From the NCBI GenBank assembly GCA_963799485.1, contig CAWCXJ010000013.1, forward strand, positions 64,001 to 128,000: a stretch of 64,000 nt of DNA, in the 5' to 3' direction. Position 1 is the first letter of the stretch, and each line of letters begins with the position of its first letter. This document shows positions 497-64,000 of this stretch, piece after piece. The DNA comes from an uncultured Trueperaceae bacterium (GTDB lineage: Bacteria; Deinococcota; Deinococci; Deinococcales; Trueperaceae). Made by a program: the position numbers and the translations under genes. Below the pieces are notes generated by a model. The model made no database searches. It saw only the letters and a list, made by a program, of their open reading frames with translations, and was not told the origin of the DNA.

Positions 497-579
497 CCGC
501 TTATGCTGGCACGGCGGCGGCTCTAAAAGGGCGTGTCAGCCTACTTGAAAGGCTCGAGGGTGTGCGACCAGCTTCAAAG

Positions 580-1821
580 TCAGGTTGCTGAAGCCGGCAC
601 AATCTGACGACGCAGAAATACGAGCCCTGCTAGCCCAGCAACAACATAGGCCACACCCTGCACATTGATGACCGGCACGATGCCTAGCGGGTCGCCGAAC
701 ACCGCTGCGAGTGTAAGGCCCGCAAGGTTGAGCAGCGCCATCGTCGTTCCGTACGCCCCGAATACGCGACCCCGGTACCGGTCTTCAACGTTGATCTGAA
801 AGAGGGTAAGTAGCCCCGCCTGGAGTGCAGACACGGGAAGACCGGCCAAGGCAATCAGCAGGAGCGCGAGGGTGACGCCGGACAGAAAAAAAGGGTAGTT
901 GAAAATAACCAGGTCGATGACGCCGAGTCCAAGTGCGCCCCAGCCGAGCAGCCAAAACGGTTTGAAGCGGTCAGCAAGCCCACTTATCAGTATGCCCCCA
1001 ATGATACCGCCGACCGCCTGTGCCGACATCAGCCAACCGACCATGACCGCTTCTCCCCGCAGGACATCGGTGACGAAAGGGATAAAAAGTGCGGACATGA
1101 CTCCTTCACCGACCGAGGTGATGGCGATGATGACAAAGAGCAGCGTCACTACGCGGTTTTGTTGGACGAGTCTGAGACCCTCGAGCCACTCTCTCCACAC
1201 GCCGCTCAGCCCACTAAATACCACCGGTGACTCTGTGGGCGGTTCTGGTACTTCTGCCGGGCGAGGATTTAACCGAACAAGGGCCACACAGCCAGCAGCG
1301 ACGAGAAAAGACGCCGCGTCGAGGAGGACAACGCCTTGCAGCCCTACAAAGCCCATCACGACGCCACCCAGCGCTGGCCCAATCAGGCGTGCCAGGTTGT
1401 CGTTGAGGGCGTTGAGCGCGTTGGCTGGAGCGAGCTGAGGTTCTTCGACCACAGTCGGTAAAAATGCGTTCTCAGCCGGGATGAAAAAGCGGCTGACGGC
1501 GGCCTGTATGAAAGCGACCGGGTAGACGAGCCAGAGCCAACCAGTTGTAGGAACGAGAGCTAAAGGCAGCACCCCGGCAAACAGCAGCAGGTTCGTGACG
1601 ACCATTGTGCGTTGCCGGTTCCAGCGGTCGACGAAGATGCCTGCGACCGAACCGAGCAAGATACGGGGCACGGTTCCTACCATGAACGTCAACCCGGTCG
1701 CCAGCGTAGAACCAGTGGTTTCGTAGACATACACGGGCAGACCAATCTGGAGGGCCCAACTCCCGATCATCGAGACGAGCCCACCCCACCAGAGCAGTGC
1801 GAAGTTGCGGTTGGCAAGCAT
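580..1821 (-). CDS. MFS transporter (H+ antiporter / macrolide-efflux-like)
   Basis: NRNFALLWWGGLVS start, motif A GIFVDRWNRQR, about 12 TM segments, RGRVFG; start uncertain (ORF extends to 1950). Confidence 0.85.
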   Translation of the reverse strand: MLANRNFALLWWGGLVSMIGSWALQIGLPVYVYETTGSTLATGLTFMVGTVPRILLGSVAGIFVDRWNRQRTMVVTNLLLFAGVLPLALVPTTGWLWLVYPVAFIQAAVSRFFIPAENAFLPTVVEEPQLAPANALNALNDNLARLIGPALGGVVMGFVGLQGVVLLDAASFLVAAGCVALVRLNPRPAEVPEPPTESPVVFSGLSGVWREWLEGLRLVQQNRVVTLLFVIIAITSVGEGVMSALFIPFVTDVLRGEAVMVGWLMSAQAVGGIIGGILISGLADRFKPFWLLGWGALGLGVIDLVIFNYPFFLSGVTLALLLIALAGLPVSALQAGLLTLFQINVEDRYRGRVFGAYGTTMALLNLAGLTLAAVFGDPLGIVPVINVQGVAYVVAGLAGLVFLRRQIVPASAT

Positions 1822-1980
1822 TAAGGTAAGGGGTGGGGCGGTTGGCTTTGCGAGACTTTGAGTTGCACGTTGGGCCTGTCTCCTCCGGGCCGCATCTTGC
1901 AAACGTGCTTGGTGACGTTGGTGTGCCTCGGAGTCCCTAAACCAGCGCATGACCTTAGCGTCGGTGTTATCCTACTGCAA

Positions 1981-3664: not shown

Positions 3665-4469
3665 ATTGACGCTCGAGTACGACGGCAGCGACTTTTACGG
3701 CTGGCAAGTCCAGGCCAAAACCGGCGCGCGCAGCCCGAAGGAACGCGTTTTACGCACGGTGCAGGGAACGCTCGAGGCTGCCTTGTCCGACGTTCCCGGC
3801 GCGGTTCCCAGAGTAATGGCGGCGGGCCGTACCGACGCGGGTGTTCACGCGCTGGCGATGACCGCACACTACCTGACTGCAGACACCGTTCCTATCTCCA
3901 AAACCGCCGCCGCCTTAAACGCCCGTCTGCCCGGTGACGTGCGCGTCTTAAACGCCGAAACCGCGTCGCCGGACTTCGAAGCGCAGTTTGGCTGTCTTTA
4001 CCGCCGCTACGAATACCGTTTACGGCAACTGCACGGCGAGCGGGGTCTTGCCGGGTCGGCGCTCGAGCGTAAACGAATCCTCTTTTTGCCCCAACGCCTC
4101 GACGTGGGCGCGATGCAGGCAGCCGCGCCGCAATTTGAAGGCACCCGCGATTTTGCGGCGCTGGCAACCCAGGAGACGCGGGGGACGGTGCGAACGCTCT
4201 ACCGCTGCCGCCTGAGTATTCACGGGGCCGACCTGTGCCTGCACGTCGCCGCCGACGGCTTTTTACGCAACATGGTGCGGGCGCTCGTCGGGACGCTCCT
4301 CTGGGTCGGCGAAGGCAAGCTGAACCCTGAAGCAGTTCCGGCGCTTTTGGCGACGAAAGACCGCCGCCGGATGGGGCCGAACGTGCCGCCGCACGGTCTT
4401 TACTTTGCCGAAGCCGGGTACACGCCGTGGGTCGCCGAGCGTAGCCCTGCCGAGTCGTTTGACCGCTAG
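3651..4469 (+). CDS. truA: tRNA pseudouridine(38-40) synthase
   Basis: LEYDGSDFYGWQ, AGRTDAGVHA, FLRNMVR, PPHGLY. Confidence 0.95.
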   Translation: MRKVKLTLEYDGSDFYGWQVQAKTGARSPKERVLRTVQGTLEAALSDVPGAVPRVMAAGRTDAGVHALAMTAHYLTADTVPISKTAAALNARLPGDVRVLNAETASPDFEAQFGCLYRRYEYRLRQLHGERGLAGSALERKRILFLPQRLDVGAMQAAAPQFEGTRDFAALATQETRGTVRTLYRCRLSIHGADLCLHVAADGFLRNMVRALVGTLLWVGEGKLNPEAVPALLATKDRRRMGPNVPPHGLYFAEAGYTPWVAERSPAESFDR

Positions 4470-4529
4470 GCTCGAGCTGCGGGCTCAGAAAGTCGGGTTG
4501 CTGCCCTTCACGCTGTGACAAAATAGCTT

Positions 4530-6026
4530 ATGACAAAATATCTGCTGGTTTGGCTGGCTTTCGCCGGGGTAGCCTTTGCCCGCCCCCCCGAAGGCACGGT
4601 TTTTTACGAGATATTCGTGCGTTCGTTTCAAGACAGTAACGGCGACGGCGTTGGTGACTTGCAGGGCGCAACCGAAAGACTCGACTACCTGCAAGCTTTG
4701 GGTGTCGGCGGCGTCTGGCTGATGCCGCTCCACCCTTCACCGAGTTACCACGGCTACGACGTGACCGACTATAAAGAGGTCAATCCCGACTACGGCACGC
4801 TCTCCGACTTCAAGGCGTTTTTGGCCGCCGCTCATGAGCGCGGCATAGACGTTATTTTAGATTTGGTCGTCAACCACACCTCGTCGCAGCACCCGTGGTT
4901 TTTACAGGCCGAGGCGGGCAATCCCAAATACCGTAGATTCTACAATTTTTCCGAAACCGACCCCGGTTGGCGCGGGCTGGGCGGCCCTGCTTGGCACGAG
5001 GCCCCGGACGGCTCGTACTACCTGGGGCTTTTCTGGAGCGAGATGCCCGACCTCAACTACCGCAACCCGGCGGTGATGCGGGAGATGGAGGACGTGGCGC
5101 GGTACTGGTTAGAGTTAGGCGTAGACGGCTTCCGGGTAGACGCGGTTCAGCACATCATCGAGAGTCCAACCGGAAGCGTCGCCAACACGCCCGAGAATAT
5201 CGCGTGGGTCGGGCAGTTTGAGGACTTCATCCACTCGGTCAAGCCCGACGCCTACTTAGTCGGCGAAACCTGGACGGACACTGAAACCATCGCCCGCTAC
5301 TTTGAACGCGCCGGGCTCGACTACGCGTTTAACTATCCACTTTTTACGGCCTTGATAAACGCCGTGCAAGACCGCGACCCGGCGGGACTCGAGGCTGTAC
5401 TAACCCAGGACAAGGCGCTCTATCCGCCCACAGCGCGGCAGGCGACGTTTATCTCGAACCACGACCAGATTCGGCCCGGTACGGCGCTGGGCTTTTTACG
5501 GCGCGACGAGGCGCGGCTCAAGCTCGCTGCCGGACTCCTGTTGACCCTGCCGGGAACGCCCTTTATCTATTACGGCGAAGAACTCGGCCTGCCAAACGGC
5601 CCCGGCGACGCCGACGAGGAGAAACGCACGCCGATGCTGTGGGACGGCTCGGAAAATTTCGGCTTTACGACCGGCACGCCCTGGTACGCGTTTAGCAGCG
5701 ACGACGAAACCTTGACTGTTGCCGCTCAAGCCGCCGACCCGGACTCTGTTTTGAACTGGTACAAAAAACTCATCACTTTGCGTAAGGCGCATCCGGCACT
5801 TTTACGGGGAACGCTTACGTTGACCTCACCAGAAAACCCCGAGGTACTCGAGTTCCGCCGTAAAACCAAAGGCGAAACGGTCGTCGTTTTTGCCAACTTC
5901 GACGACGAAACCCAGATAGCTACTGCCGAGTATGCCGGAGCGACGGACTTGCTGACTGGGCAGACGGTAGGGGAGACGCTTACCTTGGGAGAGTTGGGCG
6001 TGGCGGTGCTCGAGCTTCCTGACTAG
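4530..6026 (+). CDS. Secreted GH13 alpha-amylase family glycosidase
   Basis: Signal peptide; DSNGDGVGD, YHGYDVTDY, VVNHTS, GFRVDA, VGE and SNHD catalytic motifs. Confidence 0.9.
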   Translation: MTKYLLVWLAFAGVAFARPPEGTVFYEIFVRSFQDSNGDGVGDLQGATERLDYLQALGVGGVWLMPLHPSPSYHGYDVTDYKEVNPDYGTLSDFKAFLAAAHERGIDVILDLVVNHTSSQHPWFLQAEAGNPKYRRFYNFSETDPGWRGLGGPAWHEAPDGSYYLGLFWSEMPDLNYRNPAVMREMEDVARYWLELGVDGFRVDAVQHIIESPTGSVANTPENIAWVGQFEDFIHSVKPDAYLVGETWTDTETIARYFERAGLDYAFNYPLFTALINAVQDRDPAGLEAVLTQDKALYPPTARQATFISNHDQIRPGTALGFLRRDEARLKLAAGLLLTLPGTPFIYYGEELGLPNGPGDADEEKRTPMLWDGSENFGFTTGTPWYAFSSDDETLTVAAQAADPDSVLNWYKKLITLRKAHPALLRGTLTLTSPENPEVLEFRRKTKGETVVVFANFDDETQIATAEYAGATDLLTGQTVGETLTLGELGVAVLELPD

Positions 6027-6046
6027 ACAGCCTGCGGTAAAAAGGA

Positions 6047-6385
6047 GTGTGCAGCGTGGCGTTACTAAAAGGTGTTATCAAAGAAATAGCGATGATTTTT
6101 ATCGCTGCTTGGCTTGTGCTGGGTTCCCTGGCCGTTCCGAACAAAGTCGCTGACCGGGTGGAATTGGCTCAGGTCAGGCTCGGTTATCCGGTTTGTTTTG
6201 TCGTGCAGGACTCGAGCGGCCTAGCTATCGGGTTACCGGATAGCCCTCCGTTTCCTTACCCTTTAGGCTTTGGAAGTCCCTGGGACAATCCTGCTCGGTT
6301 CTTGTGGGGCAACTTCTGGCTTTCGCTCATTTTGGTATGCGCCGCTGTAAGACTCGCGCTTTACGCACTCAACCGATACAGCTAA
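6047..6385 (+). CDS. Hypothetical small membrane protein
   Basis: AAGGAG RBS; two hydrophobic segments; GYP motif. Confidence 0.55.
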   Translation: MCSVALLKGVIKEIAMIFIAAWLVLGSLAVPNKVADRVELAQVRLGYPVCFVVQDSSGLAIGLPDSPPFPYPLGFGSPWDNPARFLWGNFWLSLILVCAAVRLALYALNRYS

Positions 6386-7197
6386 TCATGAGCGGTCTCG
6401 AGCCCCACCTCCCGCTCTTCACTTCTACTAAACCACCGCACAAACACCGTCCCGATGGCAATCAGCATGACCGTCATGTACACCACGCCCATAATCACTC
6501 CGGCAAGCTGCTGGTCTTGCATAGCCGACGTCCCAATCGCCTGCGAAGTGCGTTCGTACCACGGGTAGATCAGGCCGGTCGCAAAAGAAAAAACGCTCGA
6601 GAACGGGTTGTGCGTAAAAATCAGTACGACGAGATAGATAAGTTGCACTTTGTATGACGGGCTCGGGAGCGCGTCCGGTAGCGGATTCATTACGGGCCAC
6701 CACATCAAGACTGCTGCGCCGAAAATCGCAAAATACGTGTAGTAGTGCAGCAAATCGTTTGTAAACATCAAGGTTTTAAGCAGTGCGGGGACGTGAATAA
6801 TTAAAAAGGCCAGGTTGAAGTGGATAACATTGACGACCGGGCGCGTAAAAAACCGTAAAATCGGTTTGATGACGGGGTGGAGCGCCACGGGCGCAATCAG
6901 CCAGCCGGGAATCCCGAGTAAAAAAATTGGCGCGACGACGAAGATAACGAGCATCATCGTCAGCATGTGCGCCGAGAGCAAGAACAATTCGCCGATGGTG
7001 TGGAGCGGTGAGACGAAAATCAGCGTGAGGAGCGTCATGCTGAAGTAGAACAGCAGCGCTTTCATGGTCGGGTAGGTTTCGCCGGGAAAAAAGCGTCGCC
7101 GCAAGGGGCCGGTGCCGAGCGCGTAAAAGAGCACGGCGACGAGCGTCAGCGCTACCGGGAGGGGCTCGAGCCGCCACAAGTTCATCAAGTCGCCCAT
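6382..7197 (-). CDS. ctaG: Cytochrome c oxidase assembly protein (CtaG / Caa3_CtaG family)
   Basis: SPLH...LSAHM, WWPV and DQQLAGVIM motifs; multi-TM. Confidence 0.8.
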   Translation of the reverse strand: MGDLMNLWRLEPLPVALTLVAVLFYALGTGPLRRRFFPGETYPTMKALLFYFSMTLLTLIFVSPLHTIGELFLLSAHMLTMMLVIFVVAPIFLLGIPGWLIAPVALHPVIKPILRFFTRPVVNVIHFNLAFLIIHVPALLKTLMFTNDLLHYYTYFAIFGAAVLMWWPVMNPLPDALPSPSYKVQLIYLVVLIFTHNPFSSVFSFATGLIYPWYERTSQAIGTSAMQDQQLAGVIMGVVYMTVMLIAIGTVFVRWFSRSEEREVGLETAHD

Positions 7198-7326
7198 ACA
7201 CTATTCTACATTCTACGGTGCTGCGGGCGGGAAGTTTGTCCCCTGATTCTCGCTTGTAAAGTCGGTAAATTTTGCCGGACGTTCAGGTTCTGACCTTTAC
7301 CTTTTTGCCTCTTACACCTTCGTCTC

Positions 7327-8085
7327 CTACCCCTTCGTCTCTGTCGTTGCGGGTTCGGGTACCTCCCCCCCGTGCGCGGCGTCGCTATAATAAGCGTCGA
7401 TCTCACCGGGAATATCTGCTGTTTCGTCTACGACCTTAAAGAGTTCCAGGTCTTTTTCGCGGATGGTGCCGTGTTCCAAAAGCGTTCCCTGCAACCAATC
7501 CAGCAGTCCTTGCCAGTAGCTGCGGCCCACCAGGTAAACCGGAAACGGCAAAATCTTTTTGGTCTGAATGAGCGTCAAGGCCTCGAACAGCTCGTCGATG
7601 GTGCCGAAACCGCCCGGAAACACTACGAACGCCGAAGAATATTTGACCAGCATCACCTTACGGACGAAAAAGTAACGGAACTTCACCTCGTCGGTCTGGT
7701 ACGGGTTCGGCGCTTGCTCAAAGGGCAAATCGACGTTGAGGCCGATGCTGCGCCCGCCCGCCTCATACGCGCCCTTGTTCCCCGCCTCCATTACACCGGG
7801 GCCGCCGCCGGTTATAACGGTGTAGCCGCCCCGGGCCAAAAGCTGCGCGAGCGCTTCGGCCTGGGCGTAGTAGCGGTGGCCTTCTTTAAGGCGCGCCGAA
7901 CCGAAAATCGTCACGGCTTTGGTCACGCCGCTCATCTCTTCAAACCCTTGAACGAATTCGCCCATGATCCGAAAAAGCCGCCACGACTCACCTGCGAGCG
8001 CATCTATAACGTACTGCTGTTCGGGCCTGCCGACAATCGGCGTCGCTTGGCCTCTGGGGTTGTCCGGTCTCAGGTCATCTGGCAT
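7327..8085 (-). CDS. LOG-family (TIGR00730-like) nucleotide monophosphate nucleosidase
   Basis: IFGSAR, TGGGPGVMEA, FFVRK, PGGFGTIDE; TAGACT 5 nt before ATG 8085. Confidence 0.9.
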   Translation of the reverse strand: MPDDLRPDNPRGQATPIVGRPEQQYVIDALAGESWRLFRIMGEFVQGFEEMSGVTKAVTIFGSARLKEGHRYYAQAEALAQLLARGGYTVITGGGPGVMEAGNKGAYEAGGRSIGLNVDLPFEQAPNPYQTDEVKFRYFFVRKVMLVKYSSAFVVFPGGFGTIDELFEALTLIQTKKILPFPVYLVGRSYWQGLLDWLQGTLLEHGTIREKDLELFKVVDETADIPGEIDAYYSDAAHGGEVPEPATTETKG

Positions 8086-8116
8086 TTGCCAGTCTACCGC
8101 GCGCCGAGCCTGAAGG

Positions 8117-8755: not shown

Positions 8756-8831
8756 GCTTACCAGTATGGCCTGCCGAGCTTTTTACTGCGAGTCTTTTAC
8801 TGTCTGTACGGACACGCGGTAAAGTAGCAGG

Positions 8832-53896: not shown

Positions 53897-53923
53897 CAGA
53901 TTTTCATAAAGTAAACTTAGGGT

Positions 53924-55618: not shown

Positions 55619-55679
55619 CGTCTGCCACGGTATATAAACCTCTTTGGGACCATCCGACGCGTAACTGAAGCGTTGCCCG

Positions 55680-56723: not shown

Positions 56724-56731
56724 GACACGAA

Positions 56732-57037: not shown

Positions 57038-57240
57038 GCCCGGACCAGCCGGCCCCGAGCCGCGCAGTTTCGACCTGCCACAGCAACAGGCAGTAGGCGC
57101 TGAAGCCGTTTCGTCAACCCCTCATGAAAAAACCTTTATACTTGACGAGACCGGCTGCAACACTGTTTTTGCGACGTTGTTTTTGCGACATTGTTTGCTG
57201 AGCGCGACACGCGCGCCCAACCCAACTGAAAGGAGCCGCG

Positions 57241-57423
57241 ATGCTCTCGTTTGTCATTCCCGAAGACCCGCGCGTCCCCGACCCGAACGTTCCACCACGT
57301 CCGCCCGAAGACCCGAGCGAGCCGCCCCCCGTCGGCGACCCCGATTCGCAGGAACCGCCGATGAAAGAGCCCGACCCTCAAGAACCGCCGATTCGGGAGC
57401 CGCCGCCCCCGAATTATGCCTGA
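57241..57423 (+). CDS. Small Pro/Asp/Glu-rich disordered protein
   Basis: AAAGGAG RBS; repeated DP/EPP units. Confidence 0.7.
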   Translation: MLSFVIPEDPRVPDPNVPPRPPEDPSEPPPVGDPDSQEPPMKEPDPQEPPIREPPPPNYA

Positions 57424-57444
57424 GGGCGACCTCGAGTGGTTCCT

Positions 57445-57891
57445 AACGCTCTGACCGAGCCTCAGGTCGGCAGCCGTCATGAGCGCAGCGTAGGCCGTAC
57501 CGCCCGCCACCGGTACCGCCGCCGACTCTTCGAACGACAGGTTTTGCGGTTTGGGCGTAACGGCGGAAGCGGCGACCGCGTGGTACTCGGCGTTGGCTCC
57601 CCCGCGCGGGTCGGTCAGTTCGACGGCGTAGTACACTTCGTCGCCCTCGCTAAAGGTCTCTACGTTTGCCCCAACTTTCTCGACGACGCCCGCCACATCG
57701 AACCCGAGCAGCAGCGGCGGCTTAATCATCGCGCCGAACATGCCGGTGCGCAGGCCCAAATCTGCCGGGTTGACCGAGGTCGCGTAAACCTTGACGAGCA
57801 GGTCGCCCGGGCCGATTTCCGGTACAGGCCGCTCTTGCATCAACAGCTTGTCCGCTGAACCGAACGCTGTAAGGACAACTGCTTTCATCAT
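57445..57891 (-). pseudogene. Truncated MDR (quinone oxidoreductase / Zn-ADH family) gene, GroES-like domain only
   Basis: MKAVV..SVNPAD..GFDVAGVV..LSFEESAAVP..LRLGQSV, then similarity stops before the Rossmann GxxG motif. Confidence 0.8.
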
Positions 57892-57954
57892 TCCTCCGTT
57901 TAGACCTCGAGTATGGCTCGCTGCTTTCACCGCTTAAGACCGGTCTTATAGGGT

Positions 57955-58836
57955 TCAGGAGAACGCCTCCTGGTGCTCTGTTACCCACGCCTCGAGCGTT
58001 GTGAGCTGTACCGGAACCTGCTCGAGCGCCGCTTTTATGTCTACCTTTGAAGAGAACAGTTCGGGGTTTTCGTAAGCCGCGGCGTACCCTTGCGCTGCGC
58101 CCTGGCCCATCCCCGGAAACACGGCCTCGAGCTTTTCCCCGAACTCTTCTGCGGGCATCGCCCGAAAAGAAATCTCGCGGCCCAGCGCGCGGCTGAAACG
58201 TTCGGCGACCTCCTGCCCGTTCAGGCGTTCGGGGCCGCTGATCTTGAGGTTCAGCGGGGCCAAATCGGGGTGGGCAAACGCGTAGGCTACGAAGCTTCCG
58301 ACGTCTTCGGTCGCCAGCCACTGCAGCTTGACCGCGAGCGGCGTCGGGTAGGCAAACGTGTTCTTTTGCGTGATTTCCTCACGTGTCCACGGGCCTAGAA
58401 AGTTTTCCATGTAAGCCGTCGGTTGAAACACCACGTAAGGAACGCCGCTCGCGGTGATGATGTCCAGGACGTCGAGCCGCATATCGAACGCCGGGTTCAC
58501 GCCCCTCACAGGCGGAAGTTCACCGCTGGCGTTCCACACGATGAACTTGACGTCCGCCTCGACCGCCGCAGTCACCGCATTTTTTGCGTAGCTGAGGCCG
58601 TCGCCCGGGCGTTCGGTAAAAAACGGAACGTGCAAGAAAACGCCGCCGACACCCGCCGACGCCGCTGCCAGAGCGTCCGCGTCCGCCATGTCGCCCTTGA
58701 AAACGTCGGCACCGTCCAGACCCCGAACACGTTTCGGGTCCCTTGTCAACACGCGCACCGTATGGCCCGCGTCCAGCAACTTGCGCGCGACCGGGAACCC
58801 CTGCGAACCTGTCGCACCGTAACTCAGTAGCTTCAC
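57955..58836 (-). CDS. NmrA-family NAD(P)-binding protein
   Basis: YGATGSQG, PTAYMEN, DVG. Confidence 0.88.
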   Translation of the reverse strand: MKLLSYGATGSQGFPVARKLLDAGHTVRVLTRDPKRVRGLDGADVFKGDMADADALAAASAGVGGVFLHVPFFTERPGDGLSYAKNAVTAAVEADVKFIVWNASGELPPVRGVNPAFDMRLDVLDIITASGVPYVVFQPTAYMENFLGPWTREEITQKNTFAYPTPLAVKLQWLATEDVGSFVAYAFAHPDLAPLNLKISGPERLNGQEVAERFSRALGREISFRAMPAEEFGEKLEAVFPGMGQGAAQGYAAAYENPELFSSKVDIKAALEQVPVQLTTLEAWVTEHQEAFS

Positions 58837-58938
58837 GTTTGCCTCCTGAAGGAGCCTACCGCAAGCTGTTTAGAAAATAAAGTAGTTACATATTTTTAAG
58901 ATAGTTTCAAAAAATGAACTTCCTTGCTATGATGAGGT

Positions 58939-59289
58939 GTGAGTACCGTAACCGATACCCCGACCGACGCCTACGCCCAAAGAGTCAAGACCGACGTCCG
59001 CTGCACCGTCGAGCGTTCCGCCGAGGTTTTAAGCGGTAAGTGGACGACGCTCATCTTAAGAGATTTGCTCGGGGGCCCGAAGCGTTTTGGTGAACTGCGC
59101 CGCTCGCTGACCGGGGTAAGCCCCAAAACCCTGACGGACAGGCTTAAGAGCCTCGAGGCCGAGGGCGTCTTGACCCGGACGCTCTACCCGGAGATGCCGC
59201 CGCGTACCGAGTACCGCCTGACTGAAAAGGGTACGGCGCTTCGCCCGGTCATCGAAGCGATGGCGGCGTGGGGCGAGACCTGGACGTAA
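58939..59289 (+). CDS. HxlR-family transcriptional regulator
   Basis: C.VE, GKWT..ILRDL, RFGEL, PPRTEY.LT. Confidence 0.92.
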   Translation: MSTVTDTPTDAYAQRVKTDVRCTVERSAEVLSGKWTTLILRDLLGGPKRFGELRRSLTGVSPKTLTDRLKSLEAEGVLTRTLYPEMPPRTEYRLTEKGTALRPVIEAMAAWGETWT

Positions 59290-59322
59290 GAAATAGCGTC
59301 ACAGCGTAAGGGCCGATAGGGG

Positions 59323-60888
59323 TCAAGCCAGCCAAGCCACCTTGTGCGCGCGGATGTCCTCTACCGGCGGTAAGGTGCCGAGCCTGAAGCGCTCCTCGAT
59401 AACGCAGAGTTCGGCGTCCCGCTGCGCGCCGAGAACGGCCCGGAGTTTGCCCTTGTTCAAATAGTAGGCCAAAAATTCATGCGCTCCCAAGTCGCCGTCG
59501 ATAACGACCTCATCCCAGCTTTCGGCGTGCCCGACGTAGCGCAACCCGACGCCGTGCTGTTTCGTCCAGAAGAGCGGCACCCCCGTAAAAGCATCTTCCT
59601 GACCCGCCATACTGTGCGCCGCCGCTCGCCCGTGCTGCATCGCCAGCCGCCAGTGCTCGACGCGGACAGCTTCCCCCGTAAAAGGGTCGGGATAGCGGGC
59701 CAGGTCGCCCGCTGCGTAGACGGGGCCGTAATTACCCGTTAAACGCAAAAAACGGTCGACTGAAACGCTGCCGTCGTTGTTCAGCGCCACACCCACAATT
59801 TCCGGCACCTTCGGCCCGACGCCCACGCCGATAACCACGAGGTCGGCGGGCAAGTCGCGACCGTCTTCCAGCACAGCGTGCGTCACCCGGTCTTCGCCCG
59901 AAAGCTGTGCAACTTTTGTCCCGGAAACAAACGCGACGCCGTTCGCTTCATGAAGTTTTCTGAACATCTCGCCGACCTCACGCCCGAAAAGCCCCTCAAA
60001 CGGTACCTCGTCGGGCGTAACGACGGTGACCTCCAAACCCCTTTCACGGAGGCTCGCGGCACACTCCATCCCGATAAAACTCGCGCCGATGATGAGCGCC
60101 CGCGCGTCCTCCTGTGCTGCTGCCACGAGGTCTTGACTGTCTTGCAGCGTTCGCAGGTAAAACACACCGCCCAACTCGGCCCCGGGAACCGTCAGCGGTT
60201 TCGGTACACTCCCAGTTGCCAAGAGTAGCGCGTCGTAGTGCAGCGTGTCGCCGTCTTCAAACGTCAGCTGCTGCGCTGCCGGGTCGATCTGCGTGACGGT
60301 TTGGGTAAGCAACGCTACGCCGAGCGCGTCGTAAAACGACTCGCCCCGTAGCGGAATCCAGCCCATCGTCTTTTCACTGCTCAGATAGTCTTTACTCAGC
60401 AAGGTGCGGTCGTAGGGTAAACCCTCCCGACCGACAAGCACCACACGCCCGCGAAACCCGTCGCGGCGGAGCGTTTCGGCGGCAGCCGCGCCCGCCGCGC
60501 CCGCACCCACAATGACAAAGACGCGGGCATCGGTTTCGTCGAGGTTGACAGGCGCAGGGGACGCGGTTTCGGGGACATCATCAGGTAATTCGACCCAGAT
60601 TTCGTCGCCGCCGAGGGTTACCTCAAACTGCGGCAGGTCGTCCAAAGCAGGGGGCTCGAGCAGTTCCCCCGTCCGGGCCGAGAAACACGCGTGGTGCCAG
60701 GGGCAAACAATCCGCGCACCGCTCAGGACGCCCTCGGACAGCGGCGCGCCGTAGTGAGTGCAGCGTGCATAAAGGGCGCTGACGCGGCCCTCGGTGCGGG
60801 TCAGCAGCACCTCGGTGCCACCAACTTCTACCGCCTTCATGTCGCCGTCTTTGAGGTCGTTTTGCCGGGCTAAAAAGTGCTTGGTCAT
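59323..60888 (-). CDS. Rieske domain + FAD-dependent oxidoreductase (AIFM3-like)
   Basis: CTHYG / CPWHH Rieske motifs, GAGAAG, YDRTLLSK, GASFIG, EHW. Confidence 0.92.
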   Translation of the reverse strand: MTKHFLARQNDLKDGDMKAVEVGGTEVLLTRTEGRVSALYARCTHYGAPLSEGVLSGARIVCPWHHACFSARTGELLEPPALDDLPQFEVTLGGDEIWVELPDDVPETASPAPVNLDETDARVFVIVGAGAAGAAAAETLRRDGFRGRVVLVGREGLPYDRTLLSKDYLSSEKTMGWIPLRGESFYDALGVALLTQTVTQIDPAAQQLTFEDGDTLHYDALLLATGSVPKPLTVPGAELGGVFYLRTLQDSQDLVAAAQEDARALIIGASFIGMECAASLRERGLEVTVVTPDEVPFEGLFGREVGEMFRKLHEANGVAFVSGTKVAQLSGEDRVTHAVLEDGRDLPADLVVIGVGVGPKVPEIVGVALNNDGSVSVDRFLRLTGNYGPVYAAGDLARYPDPFTGEAVRVEHWRLAMQHGRAAAHSMAGQEDAFTGVPLFWTKQHGVGLRYVGHAESWDEVVIDGDLGAHEFLAYYLNKGKLRAVLGAQRDAELCVIEERFRLGTLPPVEDIRAHKVAWLA

Positions 60889-61206
60889 CAGCTCTCCTCG
60901 AGGTTGGATTGCCCCTGAGTCTAGCGAACAGCCCGCGTCAAAGCGTAGCGCCAAACCGCATTTGGGCTGCCCCGAGGTGCAGTGAGGTGCAGCTTGGCTT
61001 CGTTGCCACGGTTCAGATGAACTCGAGCAAACCAGAGCCGGTCAAGCTGAACACTTTCAAGCCGCAGGTAGCGGTCTCACTGCGGTCGGAGCGGGCCGGT
61101 TACACCCTCAACGCAAGAAAACCTGTTTGGCAAGCACCTTAGCGCGATACAGTAGTTTCTTGTAAGGCCGCTAACGCCTGTAATAACAGCTTCTGCTTTT
61201 TACGCC

Positions 61207-63543
61207 CTACCGCACTCCATCCGCTACCAACTCGGCAGAACCCGTAAGCATAAAGCGCACGACCTCCGCAGCGCTCAAGGGTTCGGCAAAGAGGTAACCC
61301 TGCCCGAACTCGCAACCGAGCGCCCGGAGCTGCTCGAGCTGCGCCGCCGTCTCGACCCCTTCGGCGGTGACTTTGAGGTTTAGTGAGCGCGCCAGAGCGA
61401 CGATGGTACGCACTAGCTCGGTACTCTCGGTACTCTCCGCCATCCGCTGCACGAACGAGCGGTCGATTTTAAGGACGTTTAGGGGAAAGTTTTGCAGATA
61501 TGAGAGTGACGAGTAACCGGTGCCGAAGTCGTCGATGTGAAGCTGCACACCCAGGGTATGAAGCTGCTCCAAGGTCTCTTTGACCGTCTCCGAGTAGGTA
61601 ATCAGGACACTTTCGGTCAGCTCGAGCTTCAAAGACTCGGGTCTGAACCCGGTTTGCCGCAAGGTCTGGGCCACCCGCGCCGCTAGGTCGGGCCGGGCGA
61701 AACCTTGGCCTGAGAGGTTGACGCTTAAAGTCAGCGGCGGGTCTGCGGGAAACGCGCCCTGCCACGCGAGCAGCTGCGTACACGCTTCACGTAAAACCCA
61801 AAGGTCGACGTCGGCGACCAGCCCCAGCTCTTCGGCTAGCGGCATAAATGCCTGCGGCGAAACGAGACCGTGAACCGGGTGCTGCCAGCGCACGAGCGCC
61901 TCAAATCCGATAGGCTGCCCTGTCTCGACGGAGGTGATGGGCTGATAATGCACCGCAAATTCACGCCGCTCAAGCGCGCCGCGCAGGTCGGTCTCGAGCG
62001 CCATGAGCGTCACGGCGTGTTCGCGCAGTTCGGCGGTAAAGATCTGATAGCCCGCTTTGCCGAGCGCCTTGGCGCGGTACATAGCGAGGTCGGCGTCGCG
62101 CAGGACGTCTTCGGGCCGGTCGTATCCTGCTGCTGACGGGACGATACCGATACTGACCGTGATCGGTATTTGTTTATCCGAAAGCGAAAAGGGACGTTTA
62201 AGGACGTTTTGAATACGTTCGGCAGTCCGGGCAGCGGCTTCGATGCTCGCATCCTCGAGCAAAATCGTAAACTCGTCGCCGCCAAGCCTTGCGACTGTAT
62301 CAGCAGGCCTCACGCACCCCTTGAGGCGTTCACCGAGGGCGATCAGGAGCGCGTCACCGGCGGCGTGACCGAGCGAATCGTTGATGACCTTGAAACGGTC
62401 GAAGTCGAGAAACAAGACCGCAAAGCCCCCCTCGAGGCGGCGGTTAAAGCGTTCTATGGCCTGCCCCAAACGGTCTTTGAACAACGCCCGGTTGGGTAGA
62501 CCCGTCAGCGCGTCGTGAAAGGCGTCGTGTTGCAGCTGTTCGTTGGCCTGTTCAAGCCACCCTTTGGCCTCTTCAAGTTCTTTGGTCCGCGCCTCGACCC
62601 GCAGCTCGAGGTCGTCGTGGGCGCGCCGCAGTTCGTGCTGCGCCTCGGTAAGAACCGTCACGTCTTGACCGTAACCGAGCATCATCTGAAACTCGCCCTG
62701 CGCGCCGTACACCGGGCTCAGGTTGCGCCAGTGATACTTGACTCCGGCAGGGGTGTGAAAAACCTCTTCCCACTGCACCTGCTCCCGCTCTGCAAGGGCC
62801 CGCTGGAAGTGTTCGCGTCTTTTGTCTGCTACAGACGGCTCGAGACCCCGGTAGGCGCAGTACTCAAAATCGTCTTTGCCGATCATCCACTCTCGGAGCG
62901 CAGGGTCTTTTATAGCGGTCGGGTTGAGAAAACGGTAGCGGTGGTCGGCGTCGAACACGACGATCTCGACGGGTACGCTGTTTAAGATATATTGATAATA
63001 CGCCGACTGTTCGGCTAACTCGGCCTCGATCTGTAGGCGGCTCGTGACGTCAGTGTTGGCAAAAATATAGCCGACGACCGCGCCGTTTTCATCCAGGTAC
63101 GGATAGAGCCTCGAGGTCGTGCGTTTGGCTGCGCCGTTCCGGGCGCGGTAGCGAAGCTCTATATCGCTAAACCCTTCGCCCTGTTCGACATAGGACAAGA
63201 GTGGTTCGACAAAGCTCGCCGAGGTGACCTCGAGCAGTTCGCTGTAATTTTGTCCGATCACCTCAGCGCCGTAACCGAAATCCTTTTCACACGCCCGGTT
63301 ACACGCCAGAATACGCCCCTCCAGATCTATTAAAAAGACTGCGTTCGGAGAGATTTCAACCGCCTGCTTGTACCAGTCGTCCGGCGGTGTGAGGTCCGCA
63401 CCTGGCTCGGCGTTCGGCTTAGGTTCGGACGTGTCCCGGCTCAGCTCAGCGACCAGGGTTTGCCACATGTCCGGGCTAGGGGGTGTTTCGGGATCAAGAC
63501 CGAGACGCTCGAGCAGAGATAAAAAAGAACGTGCAGCTGACAT
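61207..63543 (-). CDS. PAS-PAS-GGDEF-EAL c-di-GMP signalling protein
   Basis: Two PAS domains, HDALTGLPNR, RLGGDEF, FEALVRW, IDDFGTGYSS. Confidence 0.95.
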   Translation of the reverse strand: MSAARSFLSLLERLGLDPETPPSPDMWQTLVAELSRDTSEPKPNAEPGADLTPPDDWYKQAVEISPNAVFLIDLEGRILACNRACEKDFGYGAEVIGQNYSELLEVTSASFVEPLLSYVEQGEGFSDIELRYRARNGAAKRTTSRLYPYLDENGAVVGYIFANTDVTSRLQIEAELAEQSAYYQYILNSVPVEIVVFDADHRYRFLNPTAIKDPALREWMIGKDDFEYCAYRGLEPSVADKRREHFQRALAEREQVQWEEVFHTPAGVKYHWRNLSPVYGAQGEFQMMLGYGQDVTVLTEAQHELRRAHDDLELRVEARTKELEEAKGWLEQANEQLQHDAFHDALTGLPNRALFKDRLGQAIERFNRRLEGGFAVLFLDFDRFKVINDSLGHAAGDALLIALGERLKGCVRPADTVARLGGDEFTILLEDASIEAAARTAERIQNVLKRPFSLSDKQIPITVSIGIVPSAAGYDRPEDVLRDADLAMYRAKALGKAGYQIFTAELREHAVTLMALETDLRGALERREFAVHYQPITSVETGQPIGFEALVRWQHPVHGLVSPQAFMPLAEELGLVADVDLWVLREACTQLLAWQGAFPADPPLTLSVNLSGQGFARPDLAARVAQTLRQTGFRPESLKLELTESVLITYSETVKETLEQLHTLGVQLHIDDFGTGYSSLSYLQNFPLNVLKIDRSFVQRMAESTESTELVRTIVALARSLNLKVTAEGVETAAQLEQLRALGCEFGQGYLFAEPLSAAEVVRFMLTGSAELVADGVR

Positions 63544-64000
63544 GCCCAGCAGCTTAGCAGCGCAAATATCACAAAAGCCTTACAAACGTGCGTTCTTTGT
63601 AGTCTTCATGAGTTTCTTGACACCTACGTCGGCGTAGATAGTGAATTGCCCTTGCAGGTTACGCCAGTGTGCAACCGTCCGAGCGTGCTACCCAGTGCTG
63701 AGCGTTTGGTCTCACCGGGTTGGTACATTTTTCAAGTAGCTGCTTTCAAATATCTGCTTGTCTATATTGGTTTTACGCTCGTCGTTTTAGTGCAAGGTAA
63801 AAATGTTGTGCGCGTAGGAAAAACCCCTAAACGCTGCTCGAGTGGATGGTGCGCGCGGTATCAGGTAGTACACCGCTGAGCCAATATCTTCCAGATCAGC
63901 CCAGAACGGCGTTTGCTAACGAGCTGTAGCGGGTCAGAGCCCGGTAAAGCTTTTTACGGCGCTGCGTTGGCGGGTACAGCAGACCTAAAGCACATCTGCC

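What the first reader, a model, noticed from the sequence alone, without database searches (positions are those of the whole stretch)
553..63842. Highly iterated palindrome CTCGAG: a HIP1-like phenomenon outside cyanobacteria
Seen: CTCGAG occurs about 137 times by hand count, roughly one per 470 bp. About 20 are expected from base composition at my estimated ~61% GC, and the same-composition palindrome GAGCTC appears only about a dozen times. It is also intergenic (553, 4471, 18839, 23829, 57431, 57906, 60897, 61022), so Leu-Glu codon pairs cannot explain all of it. Established: restriction-type palindromes (this is the XhoI site, with the TaqI core TCGA) are usually avoided, and cyanobacterial HIP1 (GCGATCGC) is the classic exception, associated with methyltransferases and deletions. 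Inference: a methylase/repair-driven process creates or maintains these sites. It may already have been noted in related Deinococcota; I cannot check.
Basis: partly seen in the sequence, partly recalled or inferred. Interest (0 to 1): 0.75.

Follow-up and report, generated by a model that had tools for sequence, protein, structure and literature searches.

The report
Hyper-abundant CTCGAG palindrome in Truepera genome
The six-letter palindrome CTCGAG is the commonest six-letter word in this Truepera-like bacterium and in many of its relatives. It is kept far above chance inside and between genes, much like the unexplained HIP1 word of cyanobacteria, and is probably linked to a DNA-methylating enzyme.

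Summary
Observation confirmed. CTCGAG occurs 138 times in the window against 22 expected. Genome-wide there are 7252 sites, one per 504 bp, and it is the top hexamer (O/E 6.2).

The excess is not a codon or short-range effect:
- It holds in all three frames after synonymous shuffling (3.3x, 7.3x, 3.9x) and in non-coding DNA (6.3x).
- Sub-words outside full sites are not enriched.
- The core is extended to G-CTCGAG-C, the same build as HIP1.
- Sites are spaced more evenly than Poisson.
- They are retained between congeners (62-66%) far better than other palindromes (12-34%).

Across 364 genomes of the phylum the trait is patchy. It reaches one site per 117-190 bp in some lineages and is purged in the largest genus. 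In a third group CTCGAG is almost the only surviving TCGA context.

Published methylomes list active, RE-less CTCGAG m6A methyltransferases in three Deinococcota. In the window's family, 34 of 34 enriched genomes encode an Eco57I-family or TaqI_C-domain enzyme, against 27 of 94 others. G000's own candidate carries a stop codon, created inside a CTCGAG site.

The mechanism (selection or biased repair, strength about S=2) is unresolved. I found no publication. The scan has noted this phenomenon before on other DNA.

The parts
553..63842 (.). 138 dispersed CTCGAG sites, on average one per 464 bp of the window
   Evidence: 138 against 22 expected, with 0 of 100 shuffles reaching 138; 94 in frame 0, 10 in frame 1, 16 in frame 2, 18 outside called genes.
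4061..63514 (.). 32 of the 138 sites carry the extended palindrome GCTCGAGC
   Evidence: 32 against 3.0 expected (0 of 100 shuffles). Genome-wide there are 1755 copies, O/E 17.3, making it the top palindromic octamer. In intergenic DNA 282 of 990 sites carry the extension, against 72 expected.
4470..4477 (.). Example of an intergenic GCTCGAGC, between ORFs 3621-4469 and 4530-6026
18836..18844 (.). Intergenic GAGCTCGAG (a rare GAGCTC overlapping a CTCGAG), between divergent ORFs 17317-18420 (-) and 18908-20371 (+)
23828..23835 (.). Intergenic GCTCGAGC upstream of the malate synthase A gene (22099-23769, minus strand)
61022..61027 (.). Intergenic site between ORFs 59323-60954 (-) and 61207-63543 (-)
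38289..38333 (.). Three sites within 45 bp, inside ORF 37761-38684 (-); a local cluster
   Evidence: Genome-wide such closeness is under-represented: P(site) is 0.37 when another site lies within 30 bp, against 0.53 overall.
57906..57911 (-). Example of a frame-1 site (xCT CGA Gxx), which uses the rare Arg codon CGA, in ORF 57136-57930
   Evidence: Genome-wide CGA rises from about 5% to 44% of Arg codons in exactly this context.

Best explanation
CTCGAG, preferably as G-CTCGAG-C, is a highly iterated palindrome of this Truepera-like genome and of many other Deinococcota.

Shown:
- A force acting on the DNA word itself holds the sites at high and unusually even density. It is not acting on codons, dipeptides or short neighbour preferences.
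- It overrides synonymous codon choice in all three frames.
- It acts equally in spacers.
- It slightly raises the Leu-Glu dipeptide.
- It slows the loss of existing sites.

Inferred strength: a fixation bias of about S = 2 (odds of a Leu-Glu pair being CTCGAG are 7.7 times the neutral expectation). This predicts roughly 2.4-fold more gains and 3.4-fold fewer losses, close to what the ortholog comparison gives.

Inferred cause: the sites are targets of an orphan, restriction-less N6-adenine methyltransferase of the Eco57I (gamma) class that writes CTCGm6AG. Such enzymes have been measured in three other Deinococcota. The methylated sites would be kept either because they serve a DNA-maintenance function that needs closely and evenly spaced marks, or because methyl-directed repair or conversion favours them.

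In G000 the candidate enzyme gene has a very recent nonsense change, or a sequencing error, so the present density may be inherited rather than actively maintained.
For: Hexamer-level excess:
- 7252 sites; top hexamer; O/E 6.2.
- Sub-words outside full sites are not enriched: CTCGA/TCGAG O/E 0.89, TCGA 1.23.
- P(G | CTCGA) is 0.67, against 0.21-0.33 after A/G/T-TCGA.
- Pentamers counted outside sites predict 1510 against 14504 observed (both-strand counts).

Codon override:
- 5040 of 9448 Leu-Glu pairs (53%) are CTCGAG, against 12.9% from background codon shares.
- CGA is 44% of Arg codons in the CT|CGA|G context (n=710), against 4-5% elsewhere.
- TCG is 67% of Ser codons in the C|TCG|AG context (n=1346), against 14-29% elsewhere.
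- After CTC, Glu is GAG in 96% of 5261 cases.
- Observed against 20 synonymous shuffles: 5040/1522, 314/43 and 898/228 in the three frames.

Intergenic DNA: O/E 6.3.

Extension: G at -1 and C at +6 are each 53% in spacers (background 27%), and both are raised in every frame.

Evenness:
- Variance/mean is 0.87-0.95, against 1.6-2.2 for other abundant hexamers.
- Frame-0 sites are more even than random thinning of Leu-Glu positions: z = -5.0, -3.3, -3.4, -2.3.

Conservation against two congeners (265 and 249 ortholog pairs, 79-80% nucleotide identity):
- Site retention is 62% and 66%, against 12-34% for other palindromes.
- At conserved Leu-Glu, retention is 0.82, against 0.36-0.63 for 13 control dicodons.

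Methylation link:
- Blow 2016 S3 rows.
- An orphan Eco57I-type gene sits in conserved synteny, between a GT4 glycosyltransferase and M50 peptidase genes, in G000 and G001.
- It is intact in 7 of 7 relatives examined.
- In family f1, 34 of 34 genomes with index R>=2 have this type (26) or a TaqI_C-domain protein (17). Among genomes with R<2 the figures are 27 of 94 and 0 of 94.
Against: - G000's own candidate gene has an in-frame TGA at codon 74, between the SAM-binding motif and NPPF. Even so, G000's density (1984/Mb) equals that of G001, whose copy is intact (2059/Mb), and site losses are symmetric between them (59 against 56).
- The specificity of the Truepera-type enzyme is not known. Its C-terminal domain (M_Eco57I_C) differs from the TaqI_C domain of the types found in families f3 and f4.
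- The same type is present in 27 non-enriched, mostly high-GC genomes. In samples from G011, G013, G015 and G018, 0 of 19 Arg codons in context are CGA.
- In the most extreme family (f5) I found no conserved Eco57I-type, C5 or N6_N4 methyltransferase and no Vsr. One complete f5 genome has no PF01555 hit at all.
- The G029-type enzyme gives strong matches in only 6 of 26 genomes of its genus, although all 26 are enriched.
- Relatives are not independent, and I chose the R>=2 cut-off myself.
- The maximal-order Markov ratio is only 1.48.
- No kb-scale periodicity was found.
Confidence: 0.5

Rival explanations
1. Purely repair- or conversion-driven word with no function. A sequence-specific short-patch repair or methyl-directed biased gene conversion converts near-sites into CTCGAG and restores damaged sites. 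The excess would then be a by-product, like CCWGG under Dcm/Vsr in E. coli (recalled knowledge).
For: - The one-step synonymous neighbour CTCGAA is drained far more than other non-site spellings: 221 observed against about 798 expected among non-site Leu-Glu pairs (my arithmetic). Only 10% of Leu codons before GAA are CTC. Site-only selection under reversible mutation does not predict this.
- One enriched relative (G032, 13562 sites in 3.8 Mb) has a C5 methyltransferase directly followed by a Vsr gene.
- Blow 2016 S3 lists m5C CTCGAG enzymes paired with Vsr in Nocardia and Rhodopseudomonas.
- Elhai 2015 proposed such a model for HIP1 (passages seen).
Against: - No Vsr in G000 or in four other enriched genomes searched.
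- G000's only full-length C5 methyltransferases sit on two phage-like contigs.
- The documented Deinococcota enzymes make m6A, which has no deamination route.
- In spacers CTCGAA/TTCGAG is not specially depleted (O/E 0.85).
- A blind conversion process does not obviously give sub-Poisson spacing or the drop in site probability next to another site.
Confidence: 0.25
2. Methylation-independent function. CTCGAG is bound or read by a conserved protein (a nucleoid-associated, Chi-like or other self-recognition factor), and selection on that function keeps the density. Methyltransferases for the word would be acquired secondarily.
For: - Enrichment is broader than any single methyltransferase lineage.
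- It persists in f5 without a conserved candidate enzyme.
- It persists in G000 with a broken candidate.
- Even spacing and strong positional conservation suggest selection.
- In the Thermus-like genus g17, CTCGAG survives a near-total purge of other TCGA words. In G021, 34 of 35 TCGA in 40 kb lie in CTCGAG. Across g17, CTCGAC plus GTCGAG number 13-132 per genome against 1455-2803 CTCGAG.
Against: - No candidate reader protein was identified.
- The association with Eco57I-family or TaqI_C enzymes in f1 (34 of 34 against 27 of 94) would be a coincidence.
- HIP1, the closest precedent, is tied to methyltransferases (Elhai 2015 abstract).
Confidence: 0.15
3. Ordinary compositional, codon-pair or neighbour-dependent bias. 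The excess would come from preferred CTC and GAG codons, an abundant Leu-Glu dipeptide and overlapping short-range preferences, as two earlier notes of this scan concluded for other genomes.
For: - The maximal-order Markov O/E is only 1.48.
- 69% of sites are in the Leu-Glu frame.
- In high-GC relatives most of the raw excess is of this kind: order-2 O/E is 1.2-2.5, and the Leu-Glu ratio is 1.2-1.9.
Against: - Excess remains in both off-frames and in spacers.
- The rare CGA codon rises ninefold only in the exact context.
- Sub-words outside sites are not enriched, and positions 1 and 6 are coupled across five bases.
- The G...C extension appears in spacers.
- Retention is higher than for 13 control dicodons and about 200 same-composition hexamers per frame.
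- The maximal-order test is circular here, because 67% of all CTCGA pentamers lie inside full sites.
Confidence: 0.05
4. Copies of a short mobile or repeated element (REP/MITE-like) that carries CTCGAG.
For: High copy number and presence in spacers.
Against: - Beyond -1/+6 the flanks show only codon-like periodicity.
- The commonest 10-mer holds 231 of 7252 sites.
- Gaps are near-exponential, and every contig has one site per 482-662 bp.
Confidence: 0.01

Closest known systems
HIP1 (GCGATCGC) of cyanobacteria (Elhai 2015, PMC4390886; Xu, Lawrence and Durand 2018, PMC5861425; passages read)
   Same: - A GC-rich palindrome far above expectation, present in all frames and in spacers.
- Not explained by codon use.
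- More conserved between genomes than control palindromes.
- Built as G + hexamer core + C.
- Linked in the literature to orphan methyltransferases.
- GCTCGAGC at 480 copies per Mb lies within the 300-2700 per Mb that Elhai's Table 2 gives for HIP1.
   Different: - Different word, different phylum, and a 6-mer core that is itself the main unit.
- Octamer O/E is 17 here, against 55-228 for HIP1.
- The documented modification in relatives is m6A at the A, not m5C or m4C at the first C plus Dam-type GATC.
- No kb-scale periodicity was detected with my simple test.
Alternate HIPs of single cyanobacteria (e.g. GGCGCC, GCsGC, rCCGGy; Elhai 2015)
   Same: - A different palindrome takes the HIP role.
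- According to the paper, a methyltransferase for that word is present when the alternate HIP is frequent.
   Different: - Those are confined to cyanobacteria.
- CTCGAG is not mentioned in that paper (0 occurrences).
Orphan CTCGAG methyltransferases in the SMRT survey of Blow et al. 2016 (PMC4752239)
   Same: - S3 table rows list active type II m6A CTCGAG enzymes, with no endonuclease named, in three Deinococcota (M.Mhy14884I, M.Mch9957IV, M.Mru1279II).
- One of them is annotated as Eco57I family in S5.
   Different: - The main text discusses CTCGAG only for Nocardia, as clusters at the replication origin (2 passages).
- It does not report genome-wide hyperabundance.
- It has no Truepera (0 occurrences).
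- I could not match their genes to my loci by sequence.
Dcm/Vsr very-short-patch repair raising CCWGG in E. coli (recalled, not checked in a paper here)
   Same: A methyltransferase-linked repair bias that raises the frequency of the methylated word and lowers its one-off neighbours.
   Different: - That case needs m5C and a Vsr nuclease. G000 has no Vsr hit.
- The effect in E. coli is small compared with 6- to 30-fold here.
DNA uptake sequences (USS/DUS) and Chi sites (recalled)
   Same: Short words kept at about one per kb or denser across a genome, by a process tied to DNA transactions.
   Different: - Those are asymmetric and orientation-biased.
- CTCGAG is a palindrome.
- I tested no uptake or RecBCD/AddAB link.

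Membership tests
Highly iterated palindrome (HIP) phenomenon, as described by Elhai 2015 and Xu et al. 2018 | GC-rich palindromic oligomer far above composition-based expectation genome-wide | tested here: met
   CTCGAG O/E 6.2 and top hexamer. GCTCGAGC O/E 17.3 and top palindromic octamer.
Highly iterated palindrome (HIP) phenomenon, as described by Elhai 2015 and Xu et al. 2018 | Present in all three reading frames and in non-coding DNA, beyond codon and amino-acid effects | tested here: met
   Synonymous shuffles give 3.3x, 7.3x and 3.9x. Context-specific codon shifts. Spacers at 6.3x.
Highly iterated palindrome (HIP) phenomenon, as described by Elhai 2015 and Xu et al. 2018 | Single dispersed copies, not part of a longer repeat | tested here: met
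   Flank composition, 10-mer counts and gap distribution.
Highly iterated palindrome (HIP) phenomenon, as described by Elhai 2015 and Xu et al. 2018 | More conserved between genomes than control palindromes | tested here: met
   62% and 66% against 12-34%. The exception is frame 1, where 3 of 24 and 4 of 15 sites are retained.
Highly iterated palindrome (HIP) phenomenon, as described by Elhai 2015 and Xu et al. 2018 | Cognate methyltransferase for the word encoded in the genome | tested here: inconclusive
   An orphan Eco57I-type gene is present but carries an in-frame TGA, and its specificity is unknown. Published CTCGAG m6A enzymes exist in three other Deinococcota.
Highly iterated palindrome (HIP) phenomenon, as described by Elhai 2015 and Xu et al. 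2018 | Kilobase-scale periodic distribution (Xu et al. 2018) | tested here: not met
   Periodograms of 1-kb counts on the four largest contigs give p = 0.68, 0.53, 0.11 and 0.46. This is a simpler method than theirs. Spacing is, however, sub-Poisson.
HIP1 proper | The word GCGATCGC with GATC and CGATCG methyltransferases | tested here: not met
   Different word. CGATCG is strongly under-represented here (O/E 0.15).
Vsr-type very-short-patch repair system | Vsr endonuclease next to a C5 methyltransferase | tested here: not met
   No PF03852 hit in G000. Its two full-length C5 methyltransferases lie on phage-like contigs C2 and C3, and a third, partial PF00145 hit also lies on C3. The pair is present in one enriched relative, G032.
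XhoI/PaeR7I-type restriction-modification system | XhoI-family endonuclease (PF04555) and avoidance of the site | tested here: inconclusive
   No PF04555 hit in G000, but the family rang in none of the control genomes. The site is enriched, not avoided.
Gamma-class N6-adenine DNA methyltransferase (Eco57I family), for the candidate gene at G000:C6:26002-27645 | SAM-binding motif, NPPF/NPPY catalytic motif, C-terminal target-recognition domain, intact reading frame | tested here: inconclusive
   DPSFGGG and NPPF motifs plus PF07669 and PF22837 are present. The frame is broken by one TGA in G000 only.
REP/MITE-like repeated element | Conserved sequence beyond the core | tested here: not met

The most novel reading that the evidence does not exclude
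CTCGAG is a phylum-wide, adenine-methylated 'maintenance mark' of Deinococcota. G-CTCGAG-C sites are kept at a regulated, even density because a DNA-maintenance system reads them. Candidates are strand discrimination for MutH-less mismatch repair, or a self-versus-foreign check during recombination.

A single principle would then explain four patterns:
- hyperabundance in Trueperaceae and Meiothermus-like genera;
- one site per 117-190 bp in two uncultured lineages, where even Leu-Glu content is doubled;
- the exemption of CTCGAG from the TCGA purge in Thermus-like genomes;
- its removal in the Deinococcus-like genus, which would have lost or replaced the system.

Because Blow et al. measured a 99.5% methylated CTCGAG motif in the culturable Meiothermus ruber, the long-open HIP question would become testable outside cyanobacteria.
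Probability: 0.2. Interest if true: 0.85.

Novelty: new variant of a known kind. Interest (0 to 1): 0.68.

Why it matters
Highly iterated palindromes have been an unexplained feature of cyanobacterial genomes for three decades. They have been studied in one phylum with essentially one word.

This case offers a second, independent instance:
- It uses another word, in another phylum, with another documented methylation chemistry (m6A).
- Among 364 related genomes it ranges from purged, through neutral, to one site per 117 bp.

That natural gradient gives comparative power that HIP1 lacks. It allows a search for the genes that co-vary with the trait. It also allows gain and loss rates to be measured and selection to be told from biased repair.

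There are practical consequences too:
- XhoI sites are extremely dense in these genomes.
- Codon-pair statistics and gene finders trained on them are distorted.
- Frame-1 sites put a CGA codon one transition from a stop, as the broken methyltransferase gene itself illustrates.

Tried and rejected
- **Read support for the stop codon.** The best public runs hold at most 25% of the sampled words of the locus. Of the four laid, none has a contig over the stop codon; the nearest piece ends one base short. So there is no verdict on whether the TGA is real.
- **XhoI endonuclease family (PF04555).** No hit in G000, nor in five genomes of the genus that avoids the site. The family rang in no control genome, so this says little.
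- **M_Eco57I_C (PF22837).** No hits in five enriched and five non-enriched genomes of other lineages, and the control was again silent.
- **Search for a conserved methyltransferase in the extreme family f5.** Eco57I-family hits are many but not orthologous. The recurring ~500-aa class is HsdM-like. The C5 enzymes of three f5 genomes are unrelated beyond the catalytic core. N6_N4 enzymes are absent from one complete f5 genome. No Vsr was found.
- **The G024-type enzyme.** Found in 1 of 23 genomes of its family.
- **Solved-structure search with the G001 ortholog.** No match at E <= 0.01.
- **Periodicity.** None found.
- **Substitution spectrum at sites that differ between congeners.** The partner usually differs at 2-3 positions. 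Synonymous sites are about two-thirds randomised at this divergence, so no direction could be read.
- **A degenerate pattern for a GC-free index.** It was too short for the tool. I used the plain hexamer CTCGAC instead.
- **Literature.** Four searches for CTCGAG combined with over-representation, Meiothermus, Truepera, Deinococcus, Thermus or methylome terms found nothing on this phenomenon.

Full report
**1. Observation**

CTCGAG occurs 138 times in the 64-kb window. One hundred dinucleotide-preserving shuffles give 22.0 +/- 5.0 (largest 35). The same-composition palindrome GAGCTC occurs 10 times against 19.4 expected.

The window is G000:C13:64001-128000 of a 3,655,195-bp, 15-contig, 59% GC assembly. 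Genome-wide:
- There are 7252 sites, and CTCGAG is the most abundant hexamer of all.
- O/E is 6.23 by composition, 5.90 by order-1 Markov, 4.68 by order-2, and 1.48 by maximal order.
- Every contig carries one site per 482-662 bp.
- Gaps have mean 502, median 367, CV 0.935, and a maximum of 4667 bp.

The closest records for the window's aspartate kinase are titled Truepera sp. and Trueperaceae bacterium MAGs, at 81-84% identity.

**2. Not codons, dipeptides or short-range bias**

I called genes with a home-made ORF scorer (3382 genes, 84.5% coding), so the boundaries are approximate.

Sites fall 5040 in frame CTC|GAG, 314 in frame 1 and 898 in frame 2. Twenty shuffles of synonymous codons within genes give 1522, 43 and 228. 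Spacers hold 1008 sites, at 1.78/kb against 2.02/kb in genes. That is O/E 6.3 by spacer composition and 5.7 by order 2, and CTCGAG is the top spacer hexamer.

Codon choice depends on the exact context:
- 53% of 9448 Leu-Glu pairs are CTCGAG, against 12.9% from codon shares measured outside that context.
- The rare Arg codon CGA is 44% (n=710) between xCT and Gxx, against 4-5% elsewhere.
- Ser TCG is 67% (n=1346) between xxC and AGx, against 14-29% elsewhere.
- After CTC, Glu is GAG in 96% of 5261 cases. After every other codon but one it is 26-65%; after TTC it is 81%.
- Leu-Glu itself is 1.24 times its expectation (9448 against 7635), while Glu-Leu is 1.04 times (7964).

Two earlier notes of this scan judged similar excesses in other genomes to be neighbour-dependent bias, so I tested that rival directly:
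- Outside full sites the sub-words are not enriched: CTCGA and TCGAG O/E 0.89, CTCG 1.07, TCGA 1.23.
- 67% of all CTCGA pentamers are followed by G, against 21-33% for ATCGA, GTCGA and TTCGA.
- Pentamers counted outside sites predict 1510 hexamers against 14504 observed (both-strand counts).

The low maximal-order ratio is therefore circular. Positions 1 and 6 are coupled across the word.

**3. Anatomy**

The core is extended. In spacers G precedes and C follows in 53% of sites each (background 27%). GCTCGAGC makes up 282 of 990 spacer sites against 72 expected, and CCTCGAGG 28 against 72. The same preference appears in all three frames relative to codon-position backgrounds. GCTCGAGC has 1755 copies (480 per Mb), O/E 17.3, and is the top palindromic octamer; there are 32 in the window against 3 expected. 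This G + hexamer + C build mirrors HIP1 (G + CGATCG + C).

Beyond those positions the flanks are unique. The commonest 10-mer covers 231 of 7252 sites, so this is not a repeated element.

**4. Spacing**

- Counts in 1-10 kb bins have variance/mean 0.87-0.95. Three other abundant hexamer pairs give 1.6-2.2. No 5-kb bin is empty.
- Frame-0 sites are more even than random choices of the same number of Leu-Glu positions: variance/mean 1.06-1.11 against 1.22-1.33; z = -5.0, -3.3, -3.4, -2.3. The counts of 300 random draws reaching the observed value were 0, 0, 0 and 2.
- A Leu-Glu pair is CTCGAG with probability 0.37 when another site lies within 30 bp, 0.58-0.61 at 200-700 bp, and 0.53 overall.
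- I found no kb-scale periodicity (p = 0.11-0.68 on four contigs).

**5. Conservation and strength**

I compared G000 with 420 kb each of two congeners, G001 and G005. This gave 265 and 249 best-hit ortholog pairs, 84% amino-acid identity and 79-80% nucleotide identity.

- CTCGAG is retained at the aligned position in 62% and 66% of cases. Other palindromes score 12-34%, and the naive expectation is 25-27%.
- Frame 0 scores 0.65 and 0.66, rank 6 among 206 and 179 same-composition hexamers.
- Frame 2 scores 0.65 and 0.77, ranks 4 and 1.
- Frame 1 is low: 3 of 24 and 4 of 15.
- At Leu-Glu pairs conserved in both genomes, retention is 262 of 321 and 239 of 290 (0.82). Thirteen control dicodons give 0.36-0.63.

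Correcting for equilibrium frequency (my arithmetic), the memory term is 0.57-0.63 for CTCGAG against 0.18-0.48 for controls. Turnover is therefore about half as fast.

The odds of CTCGAG at Leu-Glu (0.534/0.466) are 7.7 times the neutral odds (0.129/0.871). This corresponds to a fixation bias of S of about 2. It predicts about 2.4-fold more gains and 3.4-fold fewer losses, which agrees roughly with the rates implied. It fits weak selection and biased conversion equally well.

**6. Distribution in the phylum**

The tool holds 364 genomes of the phylum, in six coded families. G333 is flagged as unpublished. It is one of the 128 f1 genomes in my tallies and one of the 34 enriched ones; removing it changes 34 to 33 and 26 to 25.

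I assign names to coded genera only by inference from genome size, GC and species number, not by any search. The index R = 2*CTCGAG/(CTCGAC+GTCGAG) uses as a GC- and codon-matched control.

| Group | Genomes | CTCGAG density | Index R or other measure |
|---|---|---|---|
| Family f5 | 19 of 19 | 4300-6800 per Mb (one per 147-233 bp) | R 9-54 in the genomes I computed; GAGCTC only 0-568 per genome |
| Genus g48: G149, G150 | 2 | one per 117 and 143 bp | R 75 and 86 |
| Genus g48: G151 | 1 | — | R 1.2 |
| Meiothermus-like genera g20, g56, g57 | — | 1390-3500 per Mb | R 3.4-19 in the genomes I computed |
| Window's genus g1 | — | 1675-2770 per Mb | R 2.2-4.6 |
| Largest genus g15 (Deinococcus-like) | 108 | 26-1372 sites per genome | R about 0.1-0.3 in the six I computed: the word is purged |
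| Thermus-like g17 | 32 | 1455-2803 sites per genome | CTCGAC plus GTCGAG only 13-132 |

In a 40-kb sample of G021, from g17, 34 of 35 TCGA tetramers lie inside CTCGAG. The word is exempt from a TCGA purge.

Forty-kb samples confirm the codon-level signature in enriched genomes. CGA in context is 43 of 46 in G022, 36 of 39 in G030, 14 of 19 in G012, 11 of 13 in G008, 9 of 11 in G029 and 7 of 8 in G001. In four high-GC family members together it is 0 of 19. In the three f5 samples Leu-Glu is 2.1-2.2 times its expectation and Glu-Leu is not raised.

**7. Methyltransferases**

*G000's repertoire.* G000 encodes:
- an Eco57I-family gene on C6;
- an MmeI-like enzyme;
- a type I HsdM;
- a 1084-aa N6_N4 protein;
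- two full-length C5 enzymes on contigs C2 and C3 among phage-like neighbours (phage-like by eye only), plus a third, partial PF00145 hit on C3.

It has no Vsr.

*The candidate gene.* The C6 gene has the motifs DPSFGGG and NPPF, and Pfam domains Eco57I plus M_Eco57I_C. In both G000 and G001 it lies between a GT4 glycosyltransferase and two M50 peptidase genes, with no nuclease beside it. In G000 an in-frame TGA replaces the Arg/Gln/Lys codon of the orthologs at codon 74. Seven of seven relatives examined have no internal stop.

G001 and G005 read GCT CGA GTC there, which is a frame-1 CTCGAG site. G000 reads GCT TGA GTC. The candidate gene was therefore hit in one of its own sites. The adjacent GT4 gene is also split in G000, so assembly error cannot be excluded. 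Public runs did not cover the codon.

*Published methylomes.* Blow et al. 2016 is the key outside fact. I saw two main-text passages and supplement rows, including all 13 CTCGAG rows of S3. Active type II m6A enzymes for CTCGAG, with no cognate endonuclease named, are listed for Marinithermus hydrothermalis (94.6% of sites), Meiothermus chliarophilus (94.1%) and Meiothermus ruber (99.5%). The first is annotated as Eco57I family in S5. I could not match these genes to my loci by sequence. The Eco57I-family genes I found in G029 (f4) and G024 (f3) carry a TaqI-like specificity domain. TaqI's word TCGA is the core of CTCGAG, and its target base is the same adenine (recalled).

*Association within family f1 (128 genomes).* 34 genomes have R >= 2.

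| | R >= 2 (34 genomes) | R < 2 (94 genomes) |
|---|---|---|
| G000-type enzyme | 26 | 27 |
| TaqI_C-domain protein | 17 | 0 |
| Either | 34 | 27 |

By genus, 15 of 15 enriched genera and 11 of 21 others have one or both. The pattern is 'necessary, not sufficient'. Relatives are not independent, and the cut-off is mine.

*Counter-evidence.*
- The G029-type enzyme is strong in only 6 of 26 genomes of its uniformly enriched genus.
- The G024-type is found in 1 of 23 genomes of its family.
- In f5 I found no conserved candidate.
- One enriched relative (G032) instead has a C5 methyltransferase directly followed by Vsr. Blow's S3 lists the same arrangement for m5C CTCGAG enzymes of Nocardia and Rhodopseudomonas.

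**8. Reading**

Shown: a word-specific, genome-wide fixation bias that creates, spaces and preserves G-CTCGAG-C sites.

Inferred: the link to adenine methylation of the word.

Open: whether the bias is selection for a function of closely spaced marks or a repair or conversion drive.
- For a directional process: the strong drain of the one-transition neighbour CTCGAA in genes (221 against about 798 expected among non-site spellings).
- For selection: the even spacing and the drop in site probability beside another site.
- Against a Vsr-type route in G000: the m6A chemistry documented in relatives, and the lack of Vsr.

**9. Novelty**

Elhai 2015 (abstract and 12 passages seen) treats only cyanobacteria and never mentions CTCGAG. 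Xu et al. 2018 (12 passages seen) likewise. Four full-text searches found no report of CTCGAG hyperabundance in Deinococcota. Subscription journals are not covered, and I did not open Elhai's supplements. For two recent HIP1 papers (bioRxiv 10.1101/2024.09.10.611283 and PMC13756078) I saw only the search listing.

The scan itself has noted the phenomenon before on other DNA, mostly in the extreme uncultured family. One of those notes carries the mark 'part of it fell', without saying which part.

This window adds:
- an intermediate-strength case in Trueperaceae;
- the phylum-wide gradient measured with a matched control;
- the G...C extension;
- the spacing and turnover estimates;
- the link to published CTCGAG m6A methylomes;
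- the methyltransferase association;
- the broken candidate gene.

Noticed in passing
G000 genome-wide (e.g. top octamers): A second, non-palindromic word is strongly over-represented: CCGTAAAA / TTTTACGG, with 1547 copies and O/E 22.8. It is often extended to CGCCGTAAAA (C 52% at -2, G 54% at -1). Flanks are unique, and it occurs in genes on both strands and in spacers (801 antisense, 444 sense, 302 intergenic). It is not explained. It may be an asymmetric methyltransferase or uptake-type word.
   Followed up: partly
G021, G025 samples (L066, L067, L072, L073) and all 32 genomes of genus g17 plus g59: In the Thermus-like genus almost all TCGA is purged except inside CTCGAG. In G021, 34 of 35 TCGA in 40 kb are CTCGAG. 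CTCGAC plus GTCGAG number 13-132 per genome in g17 (41 and 196 in the two g59 genomes), against 1455-2803 CTCGAG in g17. Nearly all of these genomes carry a ~400-430 aa TaqI_C-domain methyltransferase.
   Followed up: partly
Genus g15 (108 genomes): The largest genus of the phylum (Deinococcus-like by inference) purges CTCGAG. It has 26-1372 sites per genome, and R is about 0.1-0.3 in the six genomes computed. GAGCTC is equally rare. No XhoI-family nuclease was found in the five genomes searched, but the Pfam control was silent.
   Followed up: partly
Family f5 and genus g48: GAGCTC (the SacI word) is nearly absent: 0-30 copies in 4-5 Mb in most f5 genomes and in G149 and G150. These are the genomes with the highest CTCGAG density. 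G022 and G150 share a C5 methyltransferase at 59% identity over its full length, which is a possible GAGCTC system.
   Followed up: partly
G000:C6:26002-27645 (loci L001, L010): The orphan Eco57I-type methyltransferase gene is interrupted by a TGA that arose by a C-to-T change inside a frame-1 CTCGAG site (GCT CGA GTC in G001 and G005). The neighbouring GT4 glycosyltransferase is also split in G000 (296 + 110 aa against 400 aa in G001). This may reflect real decay or assembly error.
   Followed up: partly
G000 contigs C2 (19047-23006) and C3 (34389-38336); loci L004, L005: Two related phage-like cassettes each carry a C5 cytosine methyltransferase (64% identical, differing in the middle). Each lies between a small ParB-like ORF and a terminase-like ORF (likeness by eye only). 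These low-GC contigs still carry CTCGAG at one per 553 and 526 bp.
   Followed up: no
G032:C11:83962-85231 (loci L096, L101): A C5 methyltransferase is directly followed by a Vsr endonuclease gene, in a genome of family f2 with 13562 CTCGAG sites in 3.8 Mb. This is a possible m5C/VSP route to the same word.
   Followed up: partly
G000 genome-wide: Several other palindromes are strongly avoided, which suggests past or present restriction pressure: TTTAAA (22 sites, O/E 0.08), GGATCC (53 sites, 0.05), GCATGC (0.07), GGCGCC (0.09), CCATGG (0.09), GGGCCC (0.10).
   Followed up: no
window 10037-12340 (-): The window encodes MutS2 (TIGR01069, E 4e-226). It is of passing interest given the mismatch-repair models for HIPs. 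No link was tested.
   Followed up: no
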